Source of the DNA: Coprobacillus sp. CAG:698
Lineage (GTDB): Bacteria; Bacillota_I; Bacilli_A; ML615J-28; CAG-698
DNA: 64,000 nt
NCBI GenBank assembly: GCA_000431235.1
Contig: HF988734.1
Coordinates: forward strand, 72,647 to 136,646
Direction of reading: 5' to 3'
The notes under the pieces were generated by a model. That model searched no databases, was not told the origin of the DNA, and worked only from the letters and a program-made list of their open reading frames with translations. Every line of letters begins with the position of its first letter. Within the stretch, counting starts at the first letter, position 1. This document shows positions 1,336 through 41,053 of the stretch, piece by piece. Both the position numbers and the translations under genes were made by a program.

Positions 1336-2718
1336 ATGCCTGAATTACCAGAAGTCGAAACCGTAAAAAATAGTTTAAAAGATTTAATTATAGGCGAAGA
1401 AATAAAAGACGTTAAAGTATATTATGATAAAATACTTAAGAACATTTCTAAAGATGATTTTGAAAACTCTCTCAAAGGTGAGCACTTTCTTGACATTCAG
1501 AGAAAAGGTAAATTTTTAATATTTATACTAGATCATTATATTATGGTTTCCCACTTGCGAATGGAAGGTAAATACCTTCTTCATAAAGATGAACCAATAA
1601 ATAAACATGAACATATCATATATGCTTTCAAAGATGGAAAAACCTTAAGATATGTAGACACAAGAAAATTCGGAGTTGTTTATTTGTTTAAAGAAACAAA
1701 CGTTGAAAAGGTCAAAGAAATGTACCCATTAAATACCCTAGGAATCGAACCTATTAGTAATTTGCTAACAGCTCAATACTTACAAAGCAAGATGGGGAAA
1801 AGTAACAAACCAATAAAAACCTTACTTCTTGATCAAACAATAATATCAGGTCTAGGTAACATTTACGCTGATGAAGTATGTTTTATGTGTAAATTAAACC
1901 CTCATGAAATTGGTAAAAACTTAAGTACGATTGATTTTGAAAATATTTGTGTAAATTCAAAAATAGTTTTAGAGAAAGCAATTAAACTTGGGGGAACAAC
2001 AATAAGAAGCTTTATGTCAAGCCATGAAATTACAGGTAAGTTTCAAAATGAACTCTTGGTGCATACTAAAACTAATTGCCCAATTTGCCAAAGCAAGATA
2101 AAAAAAGTATATATTGGTGGCCGTGGAACATACTATTGCCCAAACTGTCAAAAAGTTAAAAGGATGCTTATTGGCATAACAGGAGGCATAGCTTGTGGGA
2201 AAAGTGAGGTCATGAAGTATTTAAATGATAATAAATATAAAACATTTAATTGTGATGAATATTCTCATAGTTTACTTTTAGAAAGTAAAGTAAAGAATGA
2301 AATAGTAAAGACTTTTGGAGAAGAAGTTTTAGAAGGAAATGTTATAAATCGTCACAAATTAGCAGACCTAATATTTAATAATAATGCTAATAAACAAAAA
2401 CTAGAAGCAATAATACATCCTTTAGTAATTAATAAAATAAAAGAACTTAATGGACTAGTATTTGTGGAAGTACCTTTACTTTTTGAAGCCAACATGGTAA
2501 AGATATTTCAAAAAATAATATGTATTTCTTCTAGTAGAAATGTTGAAATAGATAGACTTATGAAAAGAAATAACCTTTCTCTTACAGAAGCTGAAAAAAG
2601 AATAAATGCGCAAATGGACCTTTTAGAAAAGGAAAAGAGATCGGATTATGTAATAAATAATAATACAGATATAGTGAGTTTATATAAACAAATTGAAGAT
2701 TTCCTAAAAACAATTTAA
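1336..2718 (+). CDS. mutM-coaE: Formamidopyrimidine-DNA glycosylase (Fpg/MutM) fused in-frame to dephospho-CoA kinase (CoaE)
   Basis: N-terminus is MPELPEVETV (catalytic Pro2/Glu3). It has a C4 zinc finger CPICQ...YYCPNCQK typical of the Fpg C-terminus. The frame then continues without a stop into MLIGITGGIACGKSEV, a CoaE P-loop. An internal ATG at 2173 is preceded by AAAGGA. Confidence 0.8.
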   Translation: MPELPEVETVKNSLKDLIIGEEIKDVKVYYDKILKNISKDDFENSLKGEHFLDIQRKGKFLIFILDHYIMVSHLRMEGKYLLHKDEPINKHEHIIYAFKDGKTLRYVDTRKFGVVYLFKETNVEKVKEMYPLNTLGIEPISNLLTAQYLQSKMGKSNKPIKTLLLDQTIISGLGNIYADEVCFMCKLNPHEIGKNLSTIDFENICVNSKIVLEKAIKLGGTTIRSFMSSHEITGKFQNELLVHTKTNCPICQSKIKKVYIGGRGTYYCPNCQKVKRMLIGITGGIACGKSEVMKYLNDNKYKTFNCDEYSHSLLLESKVKNEIVKTFGEEVLEGNVINRHKLADLIFNNNANKQKLEAIIHPLVINKIKELNGLVFVEVPLLFEANMVKIFQKIICISSSRNVEIDRLMKRNNLSLTEAEKRINAQMDLLEKEKRSDYVINNNTDIVSLYKQIEDFLKTI

Positions 2719-16184: not shown

Positions 16185-16793
16185 CTATAGGAATAGTGAT
16201 ATAGGTTCTGAAAAAGTGATTGAAATTTGGCCTTTTGTGAGTTCAATAAGTTTTTTATTTAAAGTTTCTTTTTCAGAAAAAGGAATTAAATATTTTAAAT
16301 AAATATCATCATTAAATGACTTATTTTGCTCGCTATATTCTAAGAGTAATCTAGATATTTTATTAAAATTATTATAACTTACATTTAATTCCATATATAC
16401 ACAAGTAGTTAAATGAAGAGGGACTATTGTTTTAACACATAGGGCGGTAGTAGAAGAGTATGCTCTTACTAAACCTGATGCTCCTAATTTAATTCCTCCA
16501 AAGTAACGGGTAACAACAGCTAAAACGTTTGTTAAATTGTTTTTCTTTAAACAATCAAGAATAACTACGCCTGCTGTTTGACTAGGTTCACCATCATCAC
16601 TAAATCTGACATTCTCGCCGTCGTAGCCGTAGATATAAGCATAACAGTTATGAGTAGCATCATAATATTTTTTTCTAATTTCGGAAAGTTTTATGCTCGC
16701 GTCATTACTATCTGTGATAGGTATAAGTGTACATATAAATTCACTTTTATTTATGATTTGTTTTTCTACGTATTCTTTATTAATTGTAATCAT
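16185..16793 (-). CDS. yigZ: YigZ/IMPACT family protein (UPF0029)
   Basis: Family motifs HNCYAY...DDGEPxxTAG...VVTRYFGGIKLGASGLVRAY are present. Confidence 0.8.
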   Translation of the reverse strand: MITINKEYVEKQIINKSEFICTLIPITDSNDASIKLSEIRKKYYDATHNCYAYIYGYDGENVRFSDDGEPSQTAGVVILDCLKKNNLTNVLAVVTRYFGGIKLGASGLVRAYSSTTALCVKTIVPLHLTTCVYMELNVSYNNFNKISRLLLEYSEQNKSFNDDIYLKYLIPFSEKETLNKKLIELTKGQISITFSEPISLFL

Positions 16794-16929
16794 TTATTTC
16801 ACCAAGATAATTATAAACTAAAAGTTAAAAAAATAAAAGAATAATTTGACGAAAAAATATGGAAAAAAAGAAAAAAATAATATATAATAAATGTATAAGT
16901 AAAAACGAAGAGAAAAGTGTGGTGAAAAC

Positions 16930-18432
16930 ATGGATAATCGAAGTCAAGAATTTCTAGCCAAAGCTAAAGATATTCTAAAAAAAATAACTTTCTCTGGTGG
17001 TGAAGGGTATATTATTGGTTCAAGCGTACTAAAAATCATTAATGAAGAAAATCTTGATAAAATAACCATTTACATAAATCTTGAGGAAAGATTAATGTAT
17101 GAGTTATTCAAAGATTATAATATTATTAAAATAAACGAAGGCATTTATCAACTTGGTTATCTTGGTTTCACATATGATATACTAACTGACAAGAGTTTAC
17201 AAGAGAATAAAATAAAAACATTAGAGTGTAAAAAACATTACTCAAAATTACTTTCTCAAAAAATGAAAGAAATAGATTATACTATTTATGCACTTGCTTT
17301 AAATCAAAACAATGTTGTATTTGATTTCTATTATGGAAAGAAGGATATAGAGAAAGGAATTGTTCGCTCTATATATTATGGCGTAAAAGCTTACTTTGAT
17401 CTTAAGCCAATTAAAATGCTAGACGCTATAAAAGTAGTTAGCCAAACAGGTTATAAGCTAGATACAAGATTATTTCAAGCGATTAAATCAAAGCGAAAGA
17501 AAATAAAAAAAGTTCCGCTTAACGAAGTAGCTACAATAATGTATGAGATTTATAGAGGAAAATATTTCAAAAAAGCTCTTAAAATACTTGTTAAGACTAA
17601 ACTATATAAGAATCTAGAATGGTATAAAGATGTTATTTTCCGTTTATATAAAAGATATCGTAAAGAGACAGATAAATTCTTTTTAGGATATGAAATGGTA
17701 AAAAGGAAAAAGTATGAACCAGTAATAGGAAATACAGCTGATAACGAATATGAACTACAAATGTTTGTTAACCTTGCAATTACAAATCCTACTGGTAAAT
17801 ATGATAAACTTACTCTTTACACATATGGTGTGCAAAATTGTGTTCTTGCTAATAGAATTAATTTTTTGTTAGGAAAAGCCAAAAAGCAATATAAAAAAAT
17901 ACGTGATGAATATAATAAATTACCTATCAAAAAAACATGTGATTTAGCATTTAAAGGCGAAGACATAATGTCTTTAGGAAATTATTCACCAGAACGCATT
18001 AATGAAATATTAGACGAAGTAATTGATTTAATATTAAATGAAAAAATAAAAAATGAAAAAGAAATCCTTAAAGACTTTATTTTAAATAAGTTGAATGGAT
18101 ATGATAACAGTAATGAAGTATATGCGAATGGTGAAAAAATCATTAAGCAAATAAACGATAACGAAAGCATTGATGTAATAACTTTTAAGAGATTACAAAA
18201 GCAACAAGAAGAATTTCATAAAAGATTATTAGAACTAGAAGTAAAAGATTTAGAGCGAGAAATAGATTACGAAGTGCGAAAAAAAATTGATGAAGGGAAG
18301 ATATTAGAAAATGTAATCCCTGAGCAAAGAAAGGATACGTACGACTCACTTTATAATTCTTATTATGAGTTTTTATTAAAAACAGAAAAATATAGTAAAT
18401 TAAAACAATACAAAAGTGATAAAAAGGAGTGA
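16930..18432 (+). CDS. CCA-tRNA nucleotidyltransferase/poly(A) polymerase-like protein with degenerate catalytic motif and coiled-coil C-terminal extension
   Basis: The head domain has pol-beta-NTase-like GGEGYIIGSSV in place of GGxVRDxLLG...DxD, and a RRDFTINA-like EIDYTIYALA. The DxD carboxylates are not evident. 500 aa. Confidence 0.45.
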   Translation: MDNRSQEFLAKAKDILKKITFSGGEGYIIGSSVLKIINEENLDKITIYINLEERLMYELFKDYNIIKINEGIYQLGYLGFTYDILTDKSLQENKIKTLECKKHYSKLLSQKMKEIDYTIYALALNQNNVVFDFYYGKKDIEKGIVRSIYYGVKAYFDLKPIKMLDAIKVVSQTGYKLDTRLFQAIKSKRKKIKKVPLNEVATIMYEIYRGKYFKKALKILVKTKLYKNLEWYKDVIFRLYKRYRKETDKFFLGYEMVKRKKYEPVIGNTADNEYELQMFVNLAITNPTGKYDKLTLYTYGVQNCVLANRINFLLGKAKKQYKKIRDEYNKLPIKKTCDLAFKGEDIMSLGNYSPERINEILDEVIDLILNEKIKNEKEILKDFILNKLNGYDNSNEVYANGEKIIKQINDNESIDVITFKRLQKQQEEFHKRLLELEVKDLEREIDYEVRKKIDEGKILENVIPEQRKDTYDSLYNSYYEFLLKTEKYSKLKQYKSDKKE

Positions 18433-18438
18433 CTGTAA

Positions 18439-19380
18439 ATGAAAATCAGTGAGTGTGAAATAGGTAAACCTGTAGAAATGATATTGAAGTTTACGAAAAT
18501 TCAATACTTTCCCCAAAACAGACAAGATTCTCAAGAATATGCGAGTATAACAGGATTAGATTGTGATAAGAGAACAATAGATGTAAGGATCTGGAAAGTT
18601 ACAGATGAAATTAAGAAACGTATTACTGAAAATGGTATATATTTATGCAAAGGTAAAATTAAACTATTTAATGATAAGAAACAGTTTATGATAGATAACG
18701 ATGGAATAACAGAAGCTAACGTTAATCCAGATGATTATTTAATAAAATGCCCTTTAGAAATCAATGAATTACAAATTGAAATCTCAAGATACATTCGAAA
18801 GATACAAAATGATAACTTGAGAAATATTGTTACTAAAGCCATAATGAAAATACAAAATGAATATTTTTCTTATCCAGCTGCCGTGTCAATTCACCACAAT
18901 TATTTAGGTGGTATTGCCTATCATGTTTATTCTATGTTAACTTTATCAGAGGTATATTTAAAACAATACAAGTACTTTAATTCTGATTTGGTATATGCAG
19001 GAATAATTATTCACGATATGGGTAAAGTAAAAGAATTAAGTGGTGTTGATAAAACAGCCTATACAGCAGAAGGTAATTTACTAGGTCATATAACAATTGG
19101 CGTAAATATGCTTCATGACGTGTGTAAAGAACTATCTTTAGAAAATACCGAGGAAGCTTTAGCACTAGAACATATAATTTTATCTCATCATGGTAAACAA
19201 GAATATGGATCACCAATAATACCTAAGATACCAGAAGCAGCTTTAATATTTATTTTAGATTATTCTGATTCACGTTTTGCTTCTTTATCAGAAATTATGA
19301 AACAAGTAAAGCCAGGAGAATATACTGAACCAGTGTTTGCTTTTGATAAGAGAATATTTTATATTCCTGACATAAAATAA
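18439..19380 (+). CDS. yhaM: 3'-5' exoribonuclease YhaM-like (OB-fold + HD domain)
   Basis: HD-domain motifs HHNYLGGIAYH, IIHDMGK and LSHHG. Starts 6 nt downstream of the previous gene. Confidence 0.75.
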   Translation: MKISECEIGKPVEMILKFTKIQYFPQNRQDSQEYASITGLDCDKRTIDVRIWKVTDEIKKRITENGIYLCKGKIKLFNDKKQFMIDNDGITEANVNPDDYLIKCPLEINELQIEISRYIRKIQNDNLRNIVTKAIMKIQNEYFSYPAAVSIHHNYLGGIAYHVYSMLTLSEVYLKQYKYFNSDLVYAGIIIHDMGKVKELSGVDKTAYTAEGNLLGHITIGVNMLHDVCKELSLENTEEALALEHIILSHHGKQEYGSPIIPKIPEAALIFILDYSDSRFASLSEIMKQVKPGEYTEPVFAFDKRIFYIPDIK

Positions 19381-19425
19381 CAAAAAAGGCTTTACAAAGA
19401 AAATAAAATGTAGTAAAATAAAATA

Positions 19426-19548
19426 GTCCTGTTAAGGACGTCATATGATATCGTCTACTAAACCCTTAGTTAGTAGACCCTCTCTTTCTTATTTCCTACT
19501 ATTATCAAGGCAAAAGGCTTCTAACAGTATTAGAGGTCTTTTGTTTTT
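19426..19548 (+). ncRNA. Candidate small RNA, copy 1 (promoter TTTACA-N17-TAAAAT at 19391-19419)
   Basis: Transcript-start hairpin GTCCTgttaAGGAC. Perfect 9-bp hairpin GTCTACTAA/TTAGTAGAC. CU-rich tract CCCUCUCUUUCUUAUUUCCU. Terminator GGCTTCTAA-cagta-TTAGAGGTC followed by TTTTGTTTTT. Confidence 0.4.
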
Positions 19549-19612
19549 AAAAAAATAAAAAAATTTTTAAAAAACTCTTTACAAAAAAAACCTAATGGTA
19601 TATAATATTAGT

Positions 19613-19740
19613 GTCCTATTAATTAGGACATCATATGATATCGTCTACTAAACCCCTAGTTAGTAGACCCTCTCTTTCTTATTTCCTACTATTATCAAAG
19701 CAAAGTGCTCTTAACTCTGTTGAGGGCATTTTGTTTTTTT
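19613..19740 (+). ncRNA. Candidate small RNA, copy 2 (promoter TTTACA-N17-TATAAT at 19578-19606)
   Basis: About 95% identical to copy 1 over the core (one C/T change in the hairpin loop, one A/G change). The terminator stem has a different sequence but the same structure: GCTCTTAAC/GTTGAGGGC followed by TTTTGTTTTTTT. Confidence 0.4.
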
Positions 19741-20058
19741 ACTCGCTTTTTTGGTTCATTTTCATCTCAAAAATATCAAAATTATTATTTTTTGGCTGAT
19801 TTATTTTTAGACATTACCATGACATAAAATAAAATAAATAACAAAATAAGACACTATTTTGATGGTATTTATGAAAAAAACTGAATAAAAAGAATAAAAT
19901 ATGACAAAATAATGGAAAAGTTACCATTGAATTAAAAAAAATGTTTACTTTTTACTAGAAAAGTAGTATAATACTAATGTTACATTAAAAAAGTGTACAT
20001 ACACACATATTATTAAAACAAAAGATGAAAAATAATAGTTTTAAGGAGAATGATTTTT

Positions 20059-23000
20059 ATGAATGGTTCATCTATTTTCAAAAAAGTATTTCCAGTAGTT
20101 CTAGTAATTGCAATGATATGCTTAATTACATTAGTAACAACATGTGCTAAAACTGGAAAAACAAACAAACCTGAGATTTCAAATCCTAATGGTGAGTACA
20201 TTTCAATAAAAGAAACTATTAACGGAAAAGAGTACAAGTACGTTATTTCTCGTAGTGAAATGTATGAAGAATTAAAGAGTGGAATCGGACTTAGCACACT
20301 CATTACTGAAGCTAACAAGAAAGTATTAGCTGAAGAAATGAAATCTGTTTCTGAAGAAGATATCGAAAAGGAAATCAAAAAGGCTACATATGGTGAAGAT
20401 GTAGACCCTGAAGATTTAACTGAAGAAAACAGAAATAAAAAGAAAAAAGAATTTGAAGAGTCAATGTTACAAGGCTATGGCTATGAAAACGAAGACGAAA
20501 TCAAAGATCATTATCGTTTAGTTCTTGCAAAAAAAGCTTATACGAATAAAAAACTTTATGAAGAAGCTAAAGATGCAAAAGATGGTGATGATTTATATAT
20601 CGCTGATACAAAAATTGATGATTATTATAAAGACAATTATAATAAATCATATTATGCAATTATCGTTCCATTTGCTTCAAGTGAAAGCATTAAGAGTGCA
20701 TTATTACAACTTGGTGTTGTAAGAAGTGGTGATAAATGGTATCATGCAGAATTGAAAGAAATCAAAGTTGGTTCTGGAATTTATGAAGTAGATCGTAAAG
20801 AAGAATTAACAGTTAATGAAATAATCGAAACTATTCTTAAACTTAATGAAATGGTTTATGGTTATCAAAAAGATTACGGATATAAAGTTGAAAATGCAAT
20901 ATTTGATTCTGAAAAGAAGACATATAGAGTTCCTGAAGGATGTGACTATGCAGTTGTAAGTTGTGCTGATAAATTAGCAGAACTAAAAGCATTAGCTACT
21001 GAGCTTACTCCTTTAGTGACTCCTGCAGATGGAAGTAAATTAACAGATGAAGAAAAACAAGCTGCTTTAGCTAAAGTTACTGAAATCCAAGCTAAATTAG
21101 ATGAAATTTCTGAAATGTTAGTTTATACAACAGAAGTTAAGAAAATTCAAAACATTATTACTTCACTTACTGATTCTCTAAATTATGAGACTAAAGAAGA
21201 CGATAAAAACGAAACTCCTGAAGACCCAACTATAGTAACACAAACATTAAATAAGTTTATTAGCGAATTTGATGGTGTGGCTTATATCTTTAATACAAAC
21301 AATGAAGAAAGCAAATTCTTCTATTCATATAGTGATTTAAAAGCTTACGATAGCAATTTACCAAGTGAATTCAAAAACAATTATATTGAATACATTCCTT
21401 ATGGTGAAGGTGATAAATCAGCAAGTAAGAACGGCGAAAAATGGTTCTCTGCTTCTTATGTTTCAAGTGGAAATATGTATTACATAATTCTAAAAATCAA
21501 AGAAAAAGATGCTGAACAACTTGCAGATGTTAAGGAAGAAATCAAAAACAAATTGTTAGAAGAAAAATTAACTTCTTCATACATTGAGAAAAAAATGGCT
21601 GAGTTAAGAAACGATAAAGGTTTCAAAGTTTATGATACTGATTTAGAAAAAGAATACATTAATACAATCTCTTCTTACAAAATTAAATATAAACAAAGCA
21701 AGAAAGATGGAAGCAATGTTGTAGGTGAAATTGATGGAACTAAATTCACTTCTGATGATTTATTCAAAGCAATGGATAAGACTTCAGGTGCTGCTTCAGT
21801 AGTAAGTGAATTATCATATCGTAGAATGGTTAACAATACACTATTCAACAAATATTATGATTATACAACTGGTAAATGGATTGGCAAAGAAGGAAAAGAT
21901 AAACGTGATGAAATCACAACATCTATTGAAAATCAAAGATTATACTATTTATCAGGTGCTTATTCATCTTATGGATATGATCCAAGCTCAATGAGTTGGT
22001 CTGAATTCCTTAAGAATGTAAATGGTGCTAAAGATGAAAAAGATTTAGCATTCCTTAACCTTTATAGTCAAGTAATTTCTGATTATATCAAAAAAGCATT
22101 TAACACAATCACTGTAACAGGTGAAGGCAAAGATACTAAATTTGAAGATACATACGCAGAAGCTTTAACTTCTAAAGTATGGAAATTAATCGAAGAAAGA
22201 ATGAAGAAAGCTCAAGAAGAAGAATTTACTGTTAATGGTGTTCATTTATTAGTTTCTGCTTATAAAACTGTTAATGACGCTGTAGCATCAAAGAACTCTT
22301 CATCTTCGTCTTCGTCTTCATCTAAAGTTTCTGCTTTAGATCCAAAAGATTGGACTGAAGAACAAGTTAAACTTGCAAAAGAACTCATTGAAAAAGTAAG
22401 TTTATACTTAGAAAGTGCTGAAGGAACATATGAAAGCAAATTAGAAGCAGTTGTATCTGCATTCGATAGTGCTCCATATGCATATGTTGATCCAACAACA
22501 AACGAATATGTAAAAATCATCAACGATAGTGGTGAAGAATATAAGTATTATTTAGAATGCGCTGAATGTAAAATTGATTTAGCAAAATATAAATCTGCTG
22601 GTTTAACACTAACTTATCAAAACTTAGGATCTTTCACAAACGGAAAGATGGTTAAAGAATTTGAAGAAGCTGCAAGATCTATTTGGAAAAAAGATTATGC
22701 AGATAAAGAATTTAATAGAGTTACAGTATATGGAGAACCAATCAAAACTGAATTTGGATACCATTTATATGTAAATCTAAGTAGTTCAGACTATACAGAA
22801 TATGATAGCATTAAAGTAGATGCTAATGGAAATCCAGTTTATACAAATGATGTTCTTGAAAAATTTAAATCTGTTCTTCCAAGCTTATACGAAGTAAGAT
22901 TAGGTTTATTACTAACTGCTTTAGAAGCAATTGATCAAACTAAATTAAGTAAAGAAGATGCTAAAGTTGTTCAAGAAAAAATTGATGAATTAAAACCATT

Positions 23001-23271
23001 GTATACAACAGAAATTAAGACAGCTGTAGAAAAATATGCAACTCCAATTATTACAAATCTAAATAGTTCATATTATTCATCATTAGTTCAACAAGCTGAA
23101 GTATTATCATTAATGGAAGGCGTTACAATTGATTCACCAAGTGGAATCAATCTTGCAAAGATTAAGAAGTTAATGGATATTAGCAGAGCTTCAATATTTA
23201 AAAGTAATCTAGCAAACTTAGAAGAAGGCGATCAAGACATCGTTAAAGCTTCTGATGTTTATGGAAAGTAA
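20059..23271 (+). CDS. Large lipoprotein with split parvulin-type PPIase domain (PrsA-like foldase family, expanded)
   Basis: RBS AAGGAGA with ATG at 20059. Signal peptide plus lipobox LVTTC. C-terminal parvulin motifs VHLLVS ... GKMVKEFEEAA ... FGYHLY. A poly-Ser run is present. 1070 aa. Confidence 0.6.
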   Translation: MNGSSIFKKVFPVVLVIAMICLITLVTTCAKTGKTNKPEISNPNGEYISIKETINGKEYKYVISRSEMYEELKSGIGLSTLITEANKKVLAEEMKSVSEEDIEKEIKKATYGEDVDPEDLTEENRNKKKKEFEESMLQGYGYENEDEIKDHYRLVLAKKAYTNKKLYEEAKDAKDGDDLYIADTKIDDYYKDNYNKSYYAIIVPFASSESIKSALLQLGVVRSGDKWYHAELKEIKVGSGIYEVDRKEELTVNEIIETILKLNEMVYGYQKDYGYKVENAIFDSEKKTYRVPEGCDYAVVSCADKLAELKALATELTPLVTPADGSKLTDEEKQAALAKVTEIQAKLDEISEMLVYTTEVKKIQNIITSLTDSLNYETKEDDKNETPEDPTIVTQTLNKFISEFDGVAYIFNTNNEESKFFYSYSDLKAYDSNLPSEFKNNYIEYIPYGEGDKSASKNGEKWFSASYVSSGNMYYIILKIKEKDAEQLADVKEEIKNKLLEEKLTSSYIEKKMAELRNDKGFKVYDTDLEKEYINTISSYKIKYKQSKKDGSNVVGEIDGTKFTSDDLFKAMDKTSGAASVVSELSYRRMVNNTLFNKYYDYTTGKWIGKEGKDKRDEITTSIENQRLYYLSGAYSSYGYDPSSMSWSEFLKNVNGAKDEKDLAFLNLYSQVISDYIKKAFNTITVTGEGKDTKFEDTYAEALTSKVWKLIEERMKKAQEEEFTVNGVHLLVSAYKTVNDAVASKNSSSSSSSSSKVSALDPKDWTEEQVKLAKELIEKVSLYLESAEGTYESKLEAVVSAFDSAPYAYVDPTTNEYVKIINDSGEEYKYYLECAECKIDLAKYKSAGLTLTYQNLGSFTNGKMVKEFEEAARSIWKKDYADKEFNRVTVYGEPIKTEFGYHLYVNLSSSDYTEYDSIKVDANGNPVYTNDVLEKFKSVLPSLYEVRLGLLLTALEAIDQTKLSKEDAKVVQEKIDELKPLYTTEIKTAVEKYATPIITNLNSSYYSSLVQQAEVLSLMEGVTIDSPSGINLAKIKKLMDISRASIFKSNLANLEEGDQDIVKASDVYGK

Positions 23272-23284
23272 GGAGGTTAATAAA

Positions 23285-25921
23285 ATGAAAAAAATAATTG
23301 CGATATTATTAACACTCGTATTAACAGTATCTTTAGTAGGTTGTACTAAAAACGATAAAAAGAATCCTCAACTTACAAATGGTGCTCAAGAACTTAGCTC
23401 AATCACTGAAAATGGCGTTAAATATGTAGTTACAAACCAAGAAGCATATAATGCTTTAAAGGCACAATATGGTAGCACTATTCTAATTGATTTAATCGAT
23501 ACAAAATTAATGAGTACTCTTAAAAACAAAGATGGAAAAACATTCTTTGATGCAGTTTTAGATGAAGACATCGTTAAAGAAATCGATAAAGTTATGTATG
23601 GTGAAGATGAATTAACTGATAAAGAAAAAGATGAAAAGAAAAAAGATTTTCTTGAAAATTTATTCATTGGTAGCGGTATTATTACTGAAGATCCTTATGC
23701 AACAGAAGTAAAAGATAAATATCGTTTAGTTCTTGCTGAAAGAGCTTATGCTAAAGAATTATTAGCAAAAGATGTTAAGGAAAACGATGCTAAATACGAA
23801 GAATACGCTAAGTTAACAAAAGAAGAACAAGAACAAAAATTAAAAGATGAACCAAAAACTCCAACTGATTATTATTTTGCTGATTCAAAAATCCAAGCTA
23901 AATATGCAAAAGATGTTTATAGTAAATTTGAAGCAATAATTGTTCCATTTACTTCAAAACGTCAAGCTGAAATAGCATTAACACAAATTAACGTAACTGT
24001 TAAAGATGGTGTTTGGACTGATGGAACAAATGCATTATCAGCTCTTCAAGTTTTTGAAAAATTCATTGAACTTTATAAAGTTGTTTACGGATACAAAGTT
24101 ACTGGTGAGTTAAATAAAGATAGTGAAGAATTCAAATTTAACGAAGGCGATTTAAATAGTAATATTCTAAAAGTCGTTAAAGATAAATTAGAAACATATA
24201 CAGAAGATAGCAAGAATGAAGCACCTAAATGGTACACACCTAACGCAATCGAAATTGGTTCAGGTAATGAAGCTATTTATGTATTAAAATTAAATGAAGA
24301 GTTAGCTACATCTTATGAAGATTTAGACGAAGCTGGCAAAAAAGCTCAAAGAGAAAAATATACTGATGCTTTAATTGATGAAACAGTTACATCTAATTAT
24401 GTACTTGTAAAAATGGGTTTATTAAGAAAAGAACAAAATATAGTTATCTATGATAGCGTTGTTGAAAACTTATATAGTAATGCAATGTCTAAGTTATCTG
24501 TAACATATGATAAAACAAAATTAGAAAGTGCTGAGTATGTTGCTGAAACAACTGATATTAAAGTAACACCAAAAGATTTATATGATGCTATGCTTAAATA
24601 TCAAGGTGCTGCTATTGTTATGGATAAACTTGTTGAAAAGAGAGCTTTATATAATAAGAACTTCAATAAGTATTATGATATGAGCACTAACAAATGGTTA
24701 AATAATAATAAGAAAACTGAAATAACTGATTTAATTGAAGCTGAAAAGAAAAACTTCAAAAATGGAAACTATAAAGATTATGGATATGATCCTAGTCAAA
24801 TGAGTTGGACATTATTTATTAAATCATTATATACAGTTGAAAACGAAGATGAATTAGTTCTTTCATTCTTAGCTGAATCTATTACAAAAGAATATGCTAA
24901 GAATATCAATAGATTTGCTGAACTAAACGATAAAGGCGAATTCGTACTTTCTAACGATGCTGCACTAACTGATAACTATTGGCGTTTAATAAGCAATCAA
25001 ATGGAAGCTGAAGCAAAGAAAAAATTCAGCGTTGAAGGAATTCATTTATTAGTATCACACTATGATACAGTTGAAGATTATATCAGCGGAAGCAATATTG
25101 TTGATCCAGAAAAGTGGACAGAAGAACAAAGAGTAGCTGCTGAAAAATTAGTTAACGAAGTTATTGCTTTCGTTAAAGATTCAAAGGGCTCATATGCTTC
25201 TCGTTTAGAAAGAATTGCAGAAGCTTTCAAATATGCTCCTGTTAAAAATGCTGATGCAACATATGCTAATAACAAAGTTGCAAGAACAATCGTTAGTGAT
25301 GGCGGTGCTGTTACAATTAACTTAAGTGAATATAAAGAAAAAGGTTTATATGTAAAATATGAATCATTAGGTGTTTTCGCTCAAGGTAAGATGGTTGAAT
25401 CTTTCAATGATGCTGTTAAGAAAATTTGGGATGCAGATGCAGATAAAGACGTATTCAATGACAAAGATCTTAATGATGTAGATAAAGTAACAGTTTTAGA
25501 AACTCCAATTAAGACTTCATTTGGATATCATGCATATATTAATATTGAAAGTAAAGAATTAAGTTCTTATATCAAAGTTATCACAGATTCTGTAGATGGT
25601 AAAACATTCCATAAATATCAATACGTACCAACTATGGATGAAGTTCGTAAGTATGTTAAGAATACAAATACTACTGAAATAACTGAAAAAGTTAAAAATG
25701 CTATTAAGACATATTATACTCCAATAGCAGATGAATTAAGTGGTGATGCATTCTCATACATTATGATGGTTAATGCTTTAGAACAAGTTATAAGTTCTTA
25801 TTCATCAACTGATAACGGAGTATCTCAAGATGCTTTAAAGAAATATATTGAATGTTATAAAGATTATACATTTAGTGATTTATTAAGTAATGTTACAGTT
25901 GATTATTTATATGTAAAATAA
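23285..25921 (+). CDS. Large lipoprotein, paralog of the upstream gene (PrsA-like split parvulin domain)
   Basis: RBS AAGGAGG. Lipobox LVGC. Many blocks are collinear with the upstream protein (DKYRLVLAE..., GYDPSQMSW, IHLLVSHYD, GKMVESFNDA, FGYHAYIN). 878 aa. Confidence 0.6.
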   Translation: MKKIIAILLTLVLTVSLVGCTKNDKKNPQLTNGAQELSSITENGVKYVVTNQEAYNALKAQYGSTILIDLIDTKLMSTLKNKDGKTFFDAVLDEDIVKEIDKVMYGEDELTDKEKDEKKKDFLENLFIGSGIITEDPYATEVKDKYRLVLAERAYAKELLAKDVKENDAKYEEYAKLTKEEQEQKLKDEPKTPTDYYFADSKIQAKYAKDVYSKFEAIIVPFTSKRQAEIALTQINVTVKDGVWTDGTNALSALQVFEKFIELYKVVYGYKVTGELNKDSEEFKFNEGDLNSNILKVVKDKLETYTEDSKNEAPKWYTPNAIEIGSGNEAIYVLKLNEELATSYEDLDEAGKKAQREKYTDALIDETVTSNYVLVKMGLLRKEQNIVIYDSVVENLYSNAMSKLSVTYDKTKLESAEYVAETTDIKVTPKDLYDAMLKYQGAAIVMDKLVEKRALYNKNFNKYYDMSTNKWLNNNKKTEITDLIEAEKKNFKNGNYKDYGYDPSQMSWTLFIKSLYTVENEDELVLSFLAESITKEYAKNINRFAELNDKGEFVLSNDAALTDNYWRLISNQMEAEAKKKFSVEGIHLLVSHYDTVEDYISGSNIVDPEKWTEEQRVAAEKLVNEVIAFVKDSKGSYASRLERIAEAFKYAPVKNADATYANNKVARTIVSDGGAVTINLSEYKEKGLYVKYESLGVFAQGKMVESFNDAVKKIWDADADKDVFNDKDLNDVDKVTVLETPIKTSFGYHAYINIESKELSSYIKVITDSVDGKTFHKYQYVPTMDEVRKYVKNTNTTEITEKVKNAIKTYYTPIADELSGDAFSYIMMVNALEQVISSYSSTDNGVSQDALKKYIECYKDYTFSDLLSNVTVDYLYVK

Positions 25922-37396: not shown

Positions 37397-38392
37397 ATGG
37401 ATAAATATTCTGTTAGAACAGACTTAGCTTCAGAAGCGATAAAAGATTTTCAAATACCTGAAGAAGAGAAAAATATTAATGGAATTGAATTAAAAAGAGT
37501 TTTTGTTGATGAAGAAAATAGTGGCCGAATCGGAAAAAAACCAGGTGTTTATTATACAATAGATACGAGGGCAATTGAAACTCATGACAATGATGACATA
37601 GTGAATTGTGAAAATGTTCTTGCAAATGTCATAAAAGAAGTTATGGAGTTTGAAAACATAAAAAACGAAGATAAAGGATTGATAGTAGGATTAGGTAATA
37701 TCAATGTTACCCCAGATTCACTAGGACCATTAGTTGTAGATAATGTAATAGTTACTAGGCATATGTTTATGATTAATCCAAGCAAAGTAAGTCCAGGAAT
37801 CAGAGAAGTTAGTGCAATTGCTCCAGGAGTAATGGGTACTACAGGTATAGAAACTTTTGATATTATAGAAGCTGTTAAGAGTAAAATAGATGTGGATTAT
37901 ATGATAGTAGTTGATGCTTTAGCATCAAGATCAATAGATCGAGTTAATAAAACTATTCAAATTACAAATACGGGAATAAGCCCTGGCTCAGGAGTTGGAA
38001 ATAGAAGAAAGGAATTAAGCAAGGAAACAATTGGCATCGCTGTGATAGCTATAGGGGTACCAACAGTTGTAGACGCGGTAACAATTACAAGTGATACAAT
38101 AGACATTATTATGAAATATATGAATAATCTTCACCGAAACAAGCCTGAAGAAATAGATATTGAAAATACTCCAAGGCCAAACAAAGAATATCGTGAAGAG
38201 TTATTTGGTAATGTTGGAGCCTTAAGTGAAGAAGAGAAAAGGCAATTAATAGATGAGATTTTAACGCCAACTGGCTTTAATATGATGGTAACACCAAAAG
38301 AAGTTGATTTAGACATATCTGACCTTACACAAATAATAAGTAAAGCAATAGATCAAGCGTTACATCCAATTGTAGGTCCGTATGAAGCCTAG
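37397..38392 (+). CDS. gpr: Germination protease GPR (spore endopeptidase)
   Basis: 331 aa. N-terminal MDKYSVRTDLASEA and GLGNxNVTPDSLGP match the GPR family. Same position as B. subtilis gpr, next to rpsT. Confidence 0.85.
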   Translation: MDKYSVRTDLASEAIKDFQIPEEEKNINGIELKRVFVDEENSGRIGKKPGVYYTIDTRAIETHDNDDIVNCENVLANVIKEVMEFENIKNEDKGLIVGLGNINVTPDSLGPLVVDNVIVTRHMFMINPSKVSPGIREVSAIAPGVMGTTGIETFDIIEAVKSKIDVDYMIVVDALASRSIDRVNKTIQITNTGISPGSGVGNRRKELSKETIGIAVIAIGVPTVVDAVTITSDTIDIIMKYMNNLHRNKPEEIDIENTPRPNKEYREELFGNVGALSEEEKRQLIDEILTPTGFNMMVTPKEVDLDISDLTQIISKAIDQALHPIVGPYEA

Positions 38393-40213: not shown

Positions 40214-40311
40214 ATAACTTTCCTCCGAATATATATAGTTTACCATATATTTGTGTTTTCTTCAATAAATGAATTGAAAAAAAATAAAAAATGATATATA
40301 ATAAGTCGGAC

Positions 40312-40400
40312 AATTTAAATGGGAGCTTCGGCTGAGAGGTTACGAAAGTAACGACCATCTAACCTGATCTAGGTAATGCTAGCGTAGGAATTTAAATTTC
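40312..40400 (+). ncRNA. TPP (thiamine pyrophosphate) riboswitch
   Basis: Conserved THI-box elements GGCTGAGAG ... AACCTGATCTAGGTAATGCTAGCGTAGGAA. Promoter TTGAAA-N17-TATAAT at 40282-40310. A T-tract terminator-like platform precedes thiT. Confidence 0.8.
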
Positions 40401-40453
40401 TATACACATATAGCATTCCAAAAACTATTTTTTGTTTTGGGAGGTTATTAATT

Positions 40454-41053
40454 ATGAAGAAAAAAGTAGTTTTTAATATCACTTTTACAGCGGTGATGAT
40501 AGGTTTAGCTGTAGCCTTTGATTTTGTAGCAGGATTAATTCCATTTTTGAAATTTCCTTATGGAGGATGCATTTCTTTTGCAATGCTTCCATTAGTGTTA
40601 ATTTCTATTATGTGTGGACCTGTTTATGGCATCATTGGTGGAAGTCTTTTTGGCTTAATAAATTATTTTATTGATGGATATGGATTTAATATAATTTCAT
40701 TTCTATTAGATTATATTGTTGCTTTTGCCACACTAGCAATTATTTCTGTTTTTAGAAAGAAAATTCTTGAAGGAAAAAAAGGATACTTTGTGTTAGGCTT
40801 TGCACTAGGATTAATTTTAAGATGGATTTCAAGTAGTATAAGTGGTGTCTTGAATGCAGCGTCTTTTGGAATTGATGGTCCATTTTTAGAAAGTATTTTT
40901 GGAAATGGTAAAACTTCATTATTGTATATATGCATATATTCATTTATTTTGTATAATATGCCTTATATTTTCGCTTCTGGTGTACTTTGCATAGTTTTAG
41001 GTCTAATTATGTATAACAGTGTTATAATGAGAAAAAATGGTGAAAATGAATAA
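40454..41053 (+). CDS. thiT: ECF transporter S component for thiamine (ThiT-like)
   Basis: Six-TM protein of about 200 aa directly downstream of the TPP riboswitch. RBS GGGAGG. Confidence 0.7.
   Translation: MKKKVVFNITFTAVMIGLAVAFDFVAGLIPFLKFPYGGCISFAMLPLVLISIMCGPVYGIIGGSLFGLINYFIDGYGFNIISFLLDYIVAFATLAIISVFRKKILEGKKGYFVLGFALGLILRWISSSISGVLNAASFGIDGPFLESIFGNGKTSLLYICIYSFILYNMPYIFASGVLCIVLGLIMYNSVIMRKNGENE

What the first reader, a model, noticed from the sequence alone, without database searches (positions are those of the whole stretch)
16930..19380. Catalytically degenerate CCA-nucleotidyltransferase-like protein coupled to YhaM 3'-5' exoribonuclease
The 500-aa protein has the head-domain layout of CCA-adding/poly(A) polymerase enzymes (GGEGYIIGSSV..., an EIDYTIYALA block in the position of RRDFTINAMA). 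However, the GGxVRD...DxD carboxylate motif appears lost, and a long coiled-coil-like C-terminal extension is added. It is followed after only 6 nt by a YhaM-type OB+HD 3'-5' exonuclease. A pseudo-NTase that retains tRNA/RNA 3'-end binding, translationally coupled to a 3'-exonuclease, suggests an RNA 3'-end surveillance pair.
Basis: partly seen in the sequence, partly recalled or inferred. Interest (0 to 1): 0.55.

Follow-up and report, generated by a model that had tools for sequence, protein, structure and literature searches.

The report
Dead CCA-adding enzyme beside YhaM nuclease
A gut bacterium related to the mycoplasmas has kept its tRNA "CCA-adding" gene but lost every catalytic residue, added a new helical tail, and placed it directly in front of a 3'-5' exonuclease gene, so the enzyme now probably serves as a non-catalytic RNA-end-binding protein.

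Summary
ORF 16930-18432 (500 aa) has the full class II CCA-adding-enzyme fold (AF2 pLDDT 89; Foldseek 1MIV E 1e-19). It keeps only 1 of 13 active-site and nucleotide-templating residues that are invariant in 37 canonical relatives: GGxVRD is GSSVLK, DxD is KIT, RRDFTxNA is EIDYTIYA, EDxxR is LKPIK. An intact YhaM gene follows after 6 nt, with its Shine-Dalgarno sequence inside the first ORF.

The gene is not an extra paralogue. It is the positional orthologue of cca: yigZ lies divergently upstream and yhaM downstream, as in Izemoplasma-type genomes with a canonical cca. A tree shows one clade with stepwise decay, scoring 13/13, then 8-9, then 5-7, then 1-3, with the window at the tip. After the first step the clade gained a C-terminal helical module. 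That module occurs nowhere else among 1.84 billion representative proteins (46 hits, all this family or fragments). All 15 extended-family loci have yhaM abutting.

Classical Mollicutes template CCA in all tRNA genes and lost CCAase; here the gene was remodelled instead. A functional link to YhaM (guiding or limiting tRNA 3' trimming) is inferred, not shown. Whether the genome has a second cca, or CCA-templating tRNA genes, could not be tested. A covarying, unclassified small RNA lies just downstream.

The parts
16185..16793 (-). yigZ / IMPACT-family gene, divergent upstream neighbour. It serves as the synteny anchor showing that the next gene is the positional orthologue of cca.
   Evidence: Pfam UPF0029 3e-36 and TIGR00257 164 bits. 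A yigZ homologue lies divergently upstream of the cca or cca-like gene in nearly all loci with enough upstream sequence.
16860..16888 (+). Candidate sigma-70-type promoter (TGGAAA-17-TATAAT) in the 136-nt yigZ / cca-like intergenic region.
   Evidence: Consensus scan, 10 of 12 matches. This is a pattern match only. The region as a whole has no more matches than its shuffles.
16930..18432 (+). Whole ORF of the catalytically degenerate CCA-adding-enzyme orthologue (500 aa plus stop).
16930..17367 (+). Head (NTase) domain, residues 1-146. The fold is kept, but motif A (GSSVLK...KIT) and motif B (EIDYTIYA) are degenerate. Motif C (D132, G136, D139) is retained.
   Evidence: 1MIV alignment, motif table, residue census, pLDDT 87-96.
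17368..18096 (+). Neck, body and tail domains, residues 147-389. The motif D nucleotide template is lost (LKPIKMLDAIKV). The tail, with LPIKKTCDLAFKGEDI, is the region best conserved with canonical enzymes.
   Evidence: Pfam tRNA_NucTran2_2 8e-14. Per-domain identity between canonical and extended sets is 0.37 for the tail against 0.19-0.27 elsewhere. Invariant columns are listed.
18097..18165 (+). Variable acidic/polar linker, residues 390-412, predicted disordered.
   Evidence: pLDDT below 50 for residues 392-412. Length and sequence vary between homologues.
18166..18429 (+). Family-specific C-terminal helical module, residues 413-500 (helices 413-456, 464-483, 486-499), ending in the conserved ...LYxxYYxxLIxxxKYxKLK.
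   Evidence: AF2 and alignment A3. A profile search of 1.84e9 representative proteins gave 46 hits, and every full-length hit is a CCA-like body plus this module. There is no Pfam or PDB match.
18424..18429 (+). Shine-Dalgarno sequence AAGGAG for yhaM. It lies inside the last codons of the upstream ORF, 9 nt before the ATG at 18439. Stops are TGA at 18430-18432 and, in the same frame, TAA at 18436-18438.
   Evidence: Read directly from the sequence.
18439..19380 (+). yhaM: a 3'-5' exonuclease with an N-terminal OB fold and an HD domain, apparently intact.
   Evidence: PDB 9h3f 1.3e-62 and 9o7t 6.7e-57. NF010007 261 bits over positions 29-312 of 314, Pfam HD 1.4e-11, weak OB match.
19507..19547 (+). 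First strong hairpin plus U-run downstream of yhaM. It is the terminator of small-RNA copy a. No terminator lies between the yhaM stop and this point, so operon transcripts probably end here.
   Evidence: Fold of 19426-19556 gives an 18-bp hairpin followed by UUUUGUUUUU. No terminator-like site was found between 18432 and 19453.

Best explanation
Shown. The 500-aa ORF is the direct descendant (positional orthologue) of the cca gene of this lineage. It keeps the whole class II CCA-adding-enzyme fold. It has lost both motif-A metal-binding aspartates, the GG/RD triphosphate-binding residues, the RRD/N ribose-sensing residues and the EDxxR nucleotide template, so it cannot plausibly polymerise nucleotides. 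It is under purifying selection, most strongly on the tRNA-binding tail. It acquired a conserved, family-specific C-terminal three-helix module joined by a disordered linker. It is organised with an intact yhaM as a tight pair: a 6-nt spacer, with the yhaM Shine-Dalgarno sequence inside ORF1.

Inferred. In a lineage whose relatives template CCA in all tRNA genes, CCA synthesis became dispensable, and the protein was kept as a non-catalytic binder of the tRNA acceptor/T-arm and its 3' end. The most likely role is as a partner of YhaM. It would either present 3'-extended tRNA precursors to the exonuclease or cap the templated CCA so that trimming stops there. The C-terminal helices would provide oligomerisation or docking. 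The identity as a pseudoenzyme is about 0.9 likely. The YhaM-linked tRNA 3'-end role is about 0.3-0.35 likely.
For: - **Fold.** AF2 gives pLDDT 89 and pTM 0.70. Foldseek top hits are all CCA-adding enzymes: 1MIV E 1.4e-19, target-normalised TM-score (TMt) 0.66-0.71. NF009814 aligns end to end.
- **Loss of catalysis.** This shows in the alignment to 1MIV. Of 13 residues invariant in 37 canonical relatives, 1 is retained. The third carboxylate, E in 37 of 37 canonical sequences, is not conserved in the family.
- **Orthology.** The same yigZ(-) | cca | yhaM framework is found in canonical and degenerate genomes. A neighbour-joining tree puts the Acholeplasma-like and extended forms in one clade nested within canonical Izemoplasma-type cca, with stepwise decay.
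- **Selection.** The ORF is intact in 86 near-identical members and in more than 20 clusters down to 27% identity. The tail domain is the best conserved region.
- **New module.** It is conserved and found only in this family among 1.84e9 representative proteins.
- **Pairing.** yhaM abuts or overlaps the gene in the window, in 10 genome loci and in 4 contig loci. The Shine-Dalgarno sequence lies inside ORF1. YhaM is intact.
- **Context from papers.** Tenericutes template CCA in all tRNA genes (PMC5143459). Mollicutes lost CCAase and RNase Z because CCA is encoded, while a CCAase homologue and YhaM persist in the Acholeplasma/phytoplasma branch (PMC4014445).
- **From my own knowledge.** B. subtilis YhaM contributes to exonucleolytic 3' maturation of CCA-containing tRNA precursors (Wen, Oussenko, Pellegrini, Bechhofer and Condon 2005).
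Against: - No experiment or computation here shows tRNA binding or a physical contact with YhaM.
- The cca...yhaM neighbourhood is older than the decay. It exists with an unrelated pullulanase gene in between in genomes with a canonical cca. Abutment could therefore be a by-product of genome compaction.
- YhaM also has reported roles unrelated to tRNA: hpf mRNA in S. aureus (PMC11347170) and ssDNA processing during transformation (PMC12107432).
- No tRNA gene was found in the window, its flanks or any fetched locus. CCA-templating in this organism therefore rests on literature about relatives.
- A second, xenologous cca elsewhere in the genome cannot be excluded.
Confidence: 0.5

Rival explanations
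1. The protein is a non-catalytic RNA- or tRNA-binding protein whose function has nothing to do with YhaM. Candidate roles are a tRNA chaperone, a protector of the CCA end, or a scaffold acting through the new C-terminal module. On this view the abutment with yhaM is inherited gene order, tightened by genome reduction.
For: - The cca and yhaM genes are already syntenic in 32 canonical loci, at a constant distance of about 2.05-2.1 kb, with an unrelated pullulanase between them.
- Acholeplasma-like genomes have the two genes abutting (11-nt gap) without the extension.
- YhaM has several reported substrates unrelated to tRNA (PMC11347170, PMC12107432).
Against: - The abutment or overlap is kept without exception in 15 of 15 extended-family loci, across proteins only 27-55% identical.
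- The Shine-Dalgarno-in-ORF arrangement suggests stoichiometric co-expression.
Confidence: 0.3
2. The protein is still an active nucleotidyltransferase (CCA-, CC-, A- or poly(A)-adding) that uses non-canonical residues.
For: - The fold is fully retained with high model confidence.
- Motif C (D132, D139), D116 and an Asp at the third-carboxylate position (D83) remain.
- Basal members of the clade keep ExE or ExD and EDxxR and may retain some activity.
Against: - In the window protein both motif-A carboxylates are K and T, the GG turn is GS, RD is LK, RRD is EID, and EDxxR is LKPIK.
- No replacement acidic pair is conserved in the family.
- The positions that replace catalytic residues vary freely between members, as expected for relaxed constraint.
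- TIGR01942 (PcnB) scores 28 bits against a cutoff of 306.
Confidence: 0.05
3. The gene is a decaying relic on its way to deletion, as happened in classical Mollicutes, and has no remaining function.
For: CCAase was lost outright in most Mollicutes once CCA was templated (PMC4014445). Catalytic residues decay stepwise along the tree.
Against: - The 500-aa frame is uninterrupted in 86 near-identical sequences and in more than 40 clusters at 50% identity.
- Tail and body motifs are strongly conserved.
- The family gained and kept a new 90-residue module.
- AF2 confidence is high.
Confidence: 0.05
4. The pair is an NTase-plus-HD-nuclease anti-phage or toxin-type module, analogous to CBASS or MenT systems.
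For: There is a superficial architectural resemblance: an NTase-fold protein next to an HD nuclease.
Against: - PADLOC gives no hit for the NTase-like protein and only weak Cas3-HD similarity for YhaM, E 1e-3.
- The locus is core-genome synteny shared by more than 50 genomes, not an island.
- The closest structures are housekeeping CCA enzymes and YhaM.
Confidence: 0.02

Closest known systems
Class II bacterial CCA-adding enzyme (tRNA nucleotidyltransferase) of the Bacillus type (Geobacillus stearothermophilus 1MIV; NCBIfam NF009814; Pfam PF01743, PF12627, PF13735)
   Same: It has the same four-domain head-neck-body-tail fold and collinear end-to-end homology. Motif C and the tail-domain motifs are retained. 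It occupies the same chromosomal position as the canonical cca of related genomes.
   Different: Twelve of 13 invariant catalytic or templating residues are replaced, and the scores fall far below the family cutoffs. It also carries about 110 extra C-terminal residues (a linker and a three-helix module) that are absent from all described CCA enzymes.
Split CC-adding and A-adding enzymes (for example Aquifex aeolicus and Bacillus halodurans; PDB 1VFG, 4WC2)
   Same: These are class II relatives in which the ancestral activity was altered by changes in the head and neck.
   Different: Those enzymes keep the DxD and GG motifs and remain polymerases with restricted specificity. Here the catalytic centre itself is gone.
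Loss of CCAase in Mollicutes (Grosjean et al. 2014, PMC4014445)
   Same: The evolutionary setting is the same: relatives of the Mollicutes, CCA templated in tRNA genes, and a CCA-adding function that is dispensable.
   Different: Classical Mollicutes deleted the gene. This lineage kept it, let the active site decay and added a new domain, which amounts to exaptation rather than loss.
YhaM / Cbf1 3'-5' exonuclease (B. subtilis, S. aureus, S. pyogenes; PDB 9h3f, 9o7t)
   Same: ORF2 has the OB-plus-HD architecture, conserved HD motifs and about 45% identity to solved YhaM proteins.
   Different: No protein partner of YhaM has been described, to my knowledge. In B. subtilis, yhaM and cca are not neighbours (from memory). 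The score is below the NCBIfam equivalog cutoff (261 against 460).
Ro60 (Rsr) / Y RNA / PNPase 'RYPER' complex of Deinococcus and Salmonella (analogy only, recalled from memory)
   Same: In RYPER a non-catalytic RNA-binding protein specialises a 3'-5' exonuclease, and a small RNA gene lies next to the protein gene.
   Different: There is no homology, no evidence here of a complex, and the small RNA found downstream has no tRNA-like or Y-RNA-like features.

Membership tests
Class II CCA-adding enzyme (tRNA nucleotidyltransferase) | Pol-beta-like head domain plus neck, body and tail fold | tested here: met
   AF2 pLDDT 89. Foldseek hits 1MIV, 6Q52 and 7OQX with E 1e-19 to 1e-18 and TMt 0.66-0.71.
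Class II CCA-adding enzyme (tRNA nucleotidyltransferase) | Motif A: GGxVRD plus the two metal-binding carboxylates DxD | tested here: not met
   The window has GSSVLK and K44-I-T46. The canonical residues are invariant in 37 of 37 relatives.
Class II CCA-adding enzyme (tRNA nucleotidyltransferase) | Motif B: RRDFTxNA (ribose recognition) | tested here: not met
   The window has EIDYTIYA. Only the Asp (D116) is kept.
Class II CCA-adding enzyme (tRNA nucleotidyltransferase) | Motif D: EDxxRxxRAxRF (the protein template that selects CTP or ATP) | tested here: not met
   The window has LKPIKMLDAIKV. E, D and both R residues are replaced.
Class II CCA-adding enzyme (tRNA nucleotidyltransferase) | Curated family score (NF009814 cutoff 290 bits; Pfam PF01743 full head domain) | tested here: not met
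   NF009814 scores 119 bits. PF01743 scores 24.6 bits and covers only profile positions 54-126.
Class II CCA-adding enzyme (tRNA nucleotidyltransferase) | Descent from cca (orthology by position and phylogeny) | tested here: met
   The yigZ | cca | yhaM framework is shared with canonical genomes. The clade is nested within canonical sequences.
Class II CCA-adding enzyme (tRNA nucleotidyltransferase) | CCA-adding activity on tRNA | not testable with these tools
   This needs a biochemical assay.
Poly(A) polymerase PcnB (the name given in one database record) | TIGR01942 family score and an intact NTase centre | tested here: not met
   TIGR01942 scores 28.5 bits against a cutoff of 305.65. Catalytic residues are absent.
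YhaM 3'-5' exonuclease (ORF2) | N-terminal OB fold plus C-terminal HD domain, collinear with characterised YhaM | tested here: met
   9h3f E 1.3e-62 over residues 46-311. NF010007 aligns over positions 29-312 of 314. Pfam HD 1.4e-11, with a weak OB match at 0.043.
YhaM 3'-5' exonuclease (ORF2) | HD-domain metal-binding His/Asp motifs | tested here: met
   HHN..H, IIHDMGK, LSHHGK and LDYSD all align with identical residues in B. subtilis YhaM (alignment).
YhaM 3'-5' exonuclease (ORF2) | NCBIfam equivalog cutoff (460 bits) | tested here: not met
   The score is 260.9 bits. ORF2 is a divergent member, consistent with the phylogenetic distance from Bacillus.
Known anti-phage defence systems (PADLOC) | Match to any defence-system protein model | tested here: not met
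   There is no hit for ORF1. ORF2 has only weak Cas3-HD similarity, E about 1e-3.

The most novel reading that the evidence does not exclude
The dead CCA enzyme is an obligate specificity subunit of YhaM. It would act as a 'CCA-end ruler or cap' that docks on the exonuclease through its new C-terminal helices and lets YhaM trim tRNA 3' trailers exactly to the genome-templated CCA, in bacteria that can no longer rebuild it. The conserved small RNA encoded just downstream might act as a further adaptor or substrate. This would be a previously unknown kind of tRNA 3'-end maturation and protection complex, built from a pseudoenzyme.
Probability: 0.2. Interest if true: 0.8.

Novelty: new variant of a known kind. 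Interest (0 to 1): 0.6.

Why it matters
CCA-adding enzymes are regarded as universally conserved, catalytically uniform housekeeping enzymes. The only evolutionary outcomes I know of are retention, splitting into CC-adding and A-adding enzymes, or outright loss, as in Mollicutes. This family shows a fourth outcome. The orthologue is kept for a long time with a dead active site and a new domain, and every intermediate of the decay series survives in living lineages.

That gives a natural experiment on what the non-catalytic parts of a CCA enzyme are good for, such as tRNA recognition, end protection or quality control. It also offers a candidate first protein partner for YhaM, whose cellular role is still debated.

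There is a practical consequence for annotation. These proteins are currently labelled 'poly(A) polymerase family protein' or 'hypothetical protein'. They should not be counted as CCA-adding activity in metabolic or translation-apparatus reconstructions of gut Bacilli.

Tried and rejected
- **tRNA genes.** I looked for tRNA genes to test CCA-templating. There were none in the window, in about 17 kb of extra flanks, or in about 60 fetched loci.
- **Second cca.** No other cca-like sequence exists in the window plus flanks. The genome-collection scan returned only one locus per genome for the lineage-typical tail motif. A xenologous copy cannot be excluded. The 364-aa canonical CCAs P0025-P0030, picked up at E 1e-6 to 1e-4, are singleton clusters without names and gave no link to this organism.
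- **C-terminal module.** It has no Pfam hit in 22 members. It has no significant PDB sequence hit; the best is E 0.011, to a calmodulin-like domain. One Pfam call failed because of a frame error.
- **Defence-system reading.** Rejected.
- **Coding potential of the downstream repeat.** A 38-codon frame exists in copy a, but 1-nt indels in L001 and a 7-nt deletion in L061 break it. The element is also invariant at all codon positions, so it is an RNA.
- **Targets of the small RNA.** Duplex energies against the 48 translation-initiation regions of the window were no better than with shuffled seeds.
- **Rfam.** No family matches the small RNA at gathering score or at E up to 10, apart from noise.
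- **Literature.** No paper was found linking YhaM with CCA enzymes or describing an inactive tRNA nucleotidyltransferase.
- **Complex prediction.** I did not attempt a fused or complex AF2 prediction. The tool returns no inter-chain confidence and accepts only window sequences.
Full report
**1. What is in the sequence.**

The window has two same-strand ORFs exactly as reported: 16930..18432 (500 aa) and 18439..19380 (313 aa). The first ends AAG GAG TGA and is followed by CTG TAA, and then by the ATG of the second. A consensus Shine-Dalgarno sequence (AAGGAG, 18424-18429) therefore sits inside the last codons of ORF1, 9 nt before the second start. No promoter-like or terminator-like site of note separates the two genes. 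Upstream, across 136 nt, lies a divergent yigZ/IMPACT gene at 16185..16793. The window is about 28% G+C and otherwise carries ordinary chromosomal genes: thrS, polA, mutM, dnaB/dnaI, uvrB, mnmA, recD2, comEC, holA, gpr, recA, rny, ymdB and the suf genes. Identical proteins are recorded from human-gut assemblies named 'Coprobacillus sp. CAG:698' or 'Bacilli bacterium'. There the protein is annotated 'poly(A) polymerase family protein' or 'hypothetical protein'.

**2. ORF1 has the CCA-enzyme fold but no active site.**

- NCBIfam's Firmicute CCA model NF009814 aligns end to end (residues 6-386 against profile positions 3-392 of 396). It scores only 119 bits against a cutoff of 290.
- Pfam finds the tail domain (tRNA_NucTran2_2, 8e-14) but only the second half of the head domain.
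- An AlphaFold2 model built on 22 homologues is confident (pLDDT 89, pTM 0.70). Its best structural matches are all class II CCA-adding enzymes: 1MIV E 1.4e-19, with target-normalised TM-scores of 0.66-0.71.
- In the alignment to 1MIV and to canonical relatives, motif A GGxVRD...DxD reads GSSVLK...K-I-T. Motif B RRDFTxNA reads EIDYTIYA. Motif D EDxxRxxRAxRF reads LKPIKMLDAIKV. Motif C (D132, G136, D139) is kept.
- I took the 13 positions that are invariant in all 37 canonical relatives retrieved: G31, R34, D35, D44, D46, R114, R115, D116, N120, E158, D159, R162 and R165 in window numbering. The window protein keeps one of them, D116.
- The third carboxylate is Glu in 37 of 37 canonical sequences. 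It is Asp in the window, but hydrophobic or basic in most family members.
- No alternative acidic pair is conserved.

On established knowledge of Pol-beta-type nucleotidyltransferases, a protein without the two motif-A carboxylates cannot bind the catalytic metals. I therefore regard it as a pseudoenzyme.

**3. It is the orthologue of cca, and the decay is stepwise.**

A scan of one genome per species for the lineage-typical tail motif gave 51 loci. In Izemoplasmatales, Anaeroplasmatales and related MAGs the gene is a canonical cca of about 395 aa. A divergent yigZ lies upstream, and yhaM lies a constant 2.05-2.1 kb downstream. The intervening gene is a pullulanase.

Three Acholeplasma-like MAGs have a 406-aa form (GGVVRS, ExD; 8-9 of 13 residues) directly abutting yhaM, with an 11-nt gap.

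Ten further genome loci, the window and four metagenomic contigs carry 480-565-aa forms with a C-terminal extension. All abut or overlap yhaM, and all have yigZ upstream.

A neighbour-joining tree places the Acholeplasma-like and extended forms in one clade nested within the canonical sequences. It has a ladder-like topology along which the retained residues fall from 8-9 to 5-7, then 2-4, then 1-3. The window clade is at the tip. Basal extended members still show ExE or xxD and EDxxR-like motifs.

The window gene is thus not an accessory paralogue. It is what became of cca in this lineage. The genome scan returned only one locus per genome, and the window plus about 17 kb of flanks has no second cca-like sequence. 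A xenologous cca elsewhere in the genome cannot be excluded with the tools available.

**4. It is maintained, not decaying.**

- The cluster at 90% identity has 86 members with intact 500-aa frames.
- The word-indexed search found about 23 clusters, and the exhaustive search found about 46 clusters at 50% identity.
- Between canonical and extended proteins the tail domain is the best conserved part, at 0.37 identity against 0.19-0.27 for head, neck and body. Within the extended family the tail is again the most conserved, at 0.45.
- Family-wide near-invariant residues cluster in the body and tail: GKYFKKA, VNLAITNP..YD, AN.IN and LPIKKTCDLAFKGEDI.

In solved class II enzyme-tRNA complexes, the body and tail hold the acceptor/T-arm and the tRNA elbow. 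This is my own knowledge; 5HC9 and 4WC2 are among the structural hits. Retained RNA binding is therefore the simplest reading, but it is an inference.

**5. The C-terminal extension is a new, family-specific module.**

After a variable, acidic, low-confidence linker (residues 392-412), AF2 predicts helices at 413-456, 464-483 and 486-499. The last 90 or so residues are alignable across the family, with near-invariant L and Y positions and a C-terminal ...YYxxLIxxxKYxKLK signature. A profile of this module was searched against all 1.84 billion representative proteins. It gave only 46 hits at E up to 1e-3. Every full-length hit (500-565 aa) has the CCA-like body in front, and nearly all the short ones look like fragments; a few weak short hits could not be placed. 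The module has no Pfam match in any of 22 members and no significant PDB sequence match. Its function (oligomerisation, or docking to a partner) is open.

**6. ORF2 is an intact YhaM.**

It matches solved YhaM/Cbf1 structures at E 1e-62 and 7e-57, with all HD-domain His/Asp motifs identical. It matches NF010007 along its whole length at 261 bits, which is below the equivalog cutoff.

**7. How it most likely works.**

Two papers set the context.
- Ardell and Hou found that all tRNA genes template CCA in Tenericutes (PMC5143459).
- Grosjean et al. concluded that, because CCA is encoded, CCAase and RNase Z became obsolete and were lost in Mollicutes after the Acholeplasma/phytoplasma branch. They also noted that YhaM persists in phytoplasmas and in the Spiroplasma group (PMC4014445).

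The present lineage belongs to the same radiation. Its cca homologues nest among the Izemoplasma, Anaeroplasma and Acholeplasma sequences. Relaxed selection on catalysis is therefore expected. What is unexpected is that the gene was remodelled rather than lost.

In B. subtilis, YhaM is one of the exonucleases that trim CCA-containing tRNA precursors (Wen et al. 2005; from my own knowledge). I therefore favour a model in which the dead CCA enzyme binds the acceptor end of tRNA or pre-tRNA and works with YhaM. It would either present 3' trailers to the nuclease or shield the irreplaceable templated CCA. The helical module would mediate assembly.

- Shown: the fold, the loss of catalytic residues, orthology, conservation, and the tight gene pairing.
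- Inferred: RNA binding, the partnership with YhaM, and CCA-templating in this organism.

The main rival is that the protein has a YhaM-independent RNA-binding role and the abutment is inherited synteny, since cca and yhaM were already neighbours, separated by an unrelated gene, while cca was still canonical. Residual polymerase activity, a functionless relic and a defence system are all unlikely.

**8. Novelty.**

I found no paper describing an inactive tRNA nucleotidyltransferase or a YhaM partner. Curated libraries do not recognise the family. It is best described as a new variant of a known kind: a pseudoenzyme derivative of the class II CCA-adding enzyme with a novel appended module.

**9. 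Seen in passing: a small RNA downstream.**

Immediately downstream of yhaM are two tandem copies of a small-RNA gene of about 125 nt (19425-19547 and 19612-19737). Each has its own strong promoter and a terminator.

- A stretch of about 30 nt, predicted unpaired (CUCUCUUUCUUAUUUCCUACUAUUAUCAAA), is invariant in genomes whose flanking proteins are only 31-58% identical.
- The predicted hairpins covary: 16 pairs show compensatory changes and 97.6% of cells are paired, against 39-56% when the partners are slid.
- No Rfam family matches.
- Among loci with enough flanking sequence, it lies just after yhaM in all but one. In L067 it lies without yhaM, in front of a similar downstream promoter and ribosome-binding site.

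Its relation to the gene pair is unknown.

Noticed in passing
window 19425-19547 (+) and 19612-19737 (+); also L020 8480-8604 and 8679-8803, L001 8573-8700, L060 12567-12697, L061 12632-12753, L062 12669-12794, and L064, L066, L067, L068: Two tandem copies of an unclassified small-RNA gene of about 125 nt lie in the gap between yhaM and the next gene. Each copy has its own promoter (TTTACA-17-TAAAAT or TATAAT), two 5' hairpins, a CU-rich stretch of about 30 nt predicted unpaired (CUCUCUUUCUUAUUUCCUACUAUUAUCAAA), and a terminator hairpin. That stretch is invariant across genomes whose flanking proteins are only 31-58% identical. Sixteen base pairs show compensatory changes. There is no Rfam match. 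It is not coding, because indels break the only frame. It usually follows yhaM, but in L067 it occurs without yhaM nearby. No convincing target was found within the window.
   Followed up: partly
window 20050-23271 (+, 1073 aa) and 23255-25921 (+, 888 aa): Two large consecutive proteins have no Pfam or NCBIfam match. The first has an N-terminal hydrophobic segment. The pair is syntenic downstream of yhaM and the small RNA in distant relatives, at 1039-1070 aa plus 831-878 aa in L052 and L060-L062. Lengths vary between strains, with 1275 aa for the second protein in L053. They are probably envelope or surface proteins of unknown function.
   Followed up: no
window 1336-2718 (+, 460 aa): A single ORF combines Fpg/MutM domains (Fapy_DNA_glyco, H2TH, zf-FPG) with a CoaE dephospho-CoA kinase domain, according to the precomputed Pfam hits. 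It looks like a fusion of two genes that are separate neighbours in Bacillus (from memory).
   Followed up: no
window 40309-40407 (+): A TPP riboswitch (RF00059, 60.8 bits, above the gathering score) lies upstream of the ORF at 40454-41053.
   Followed up: no
window 37397-38392 (gpr); also CotE and SpoIIR in the flanks (L058 1452-1967, L056 3143-3628) and SpoIIID in L063 4725-4991: Sporulation and germination genes are present. This relative of the wall-less Mollicutes therefore appears to be an endospore former that uses TGA as a stop codon.
   Followed up: no
L013-L051 (for example L041 7151-9256): In Izemoplasma-type genomes a pullulanase-like gene of about 700 aa (PulA_N1, CBM48, alpha-amylase) sits at a strikingly constant spacing between the canonical cca and yhaM (gap 2045-2105 nt in 32 loci). 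Its deletion created the cca-yhaM abutment seen in the window's lineage.
   Followed up: partly
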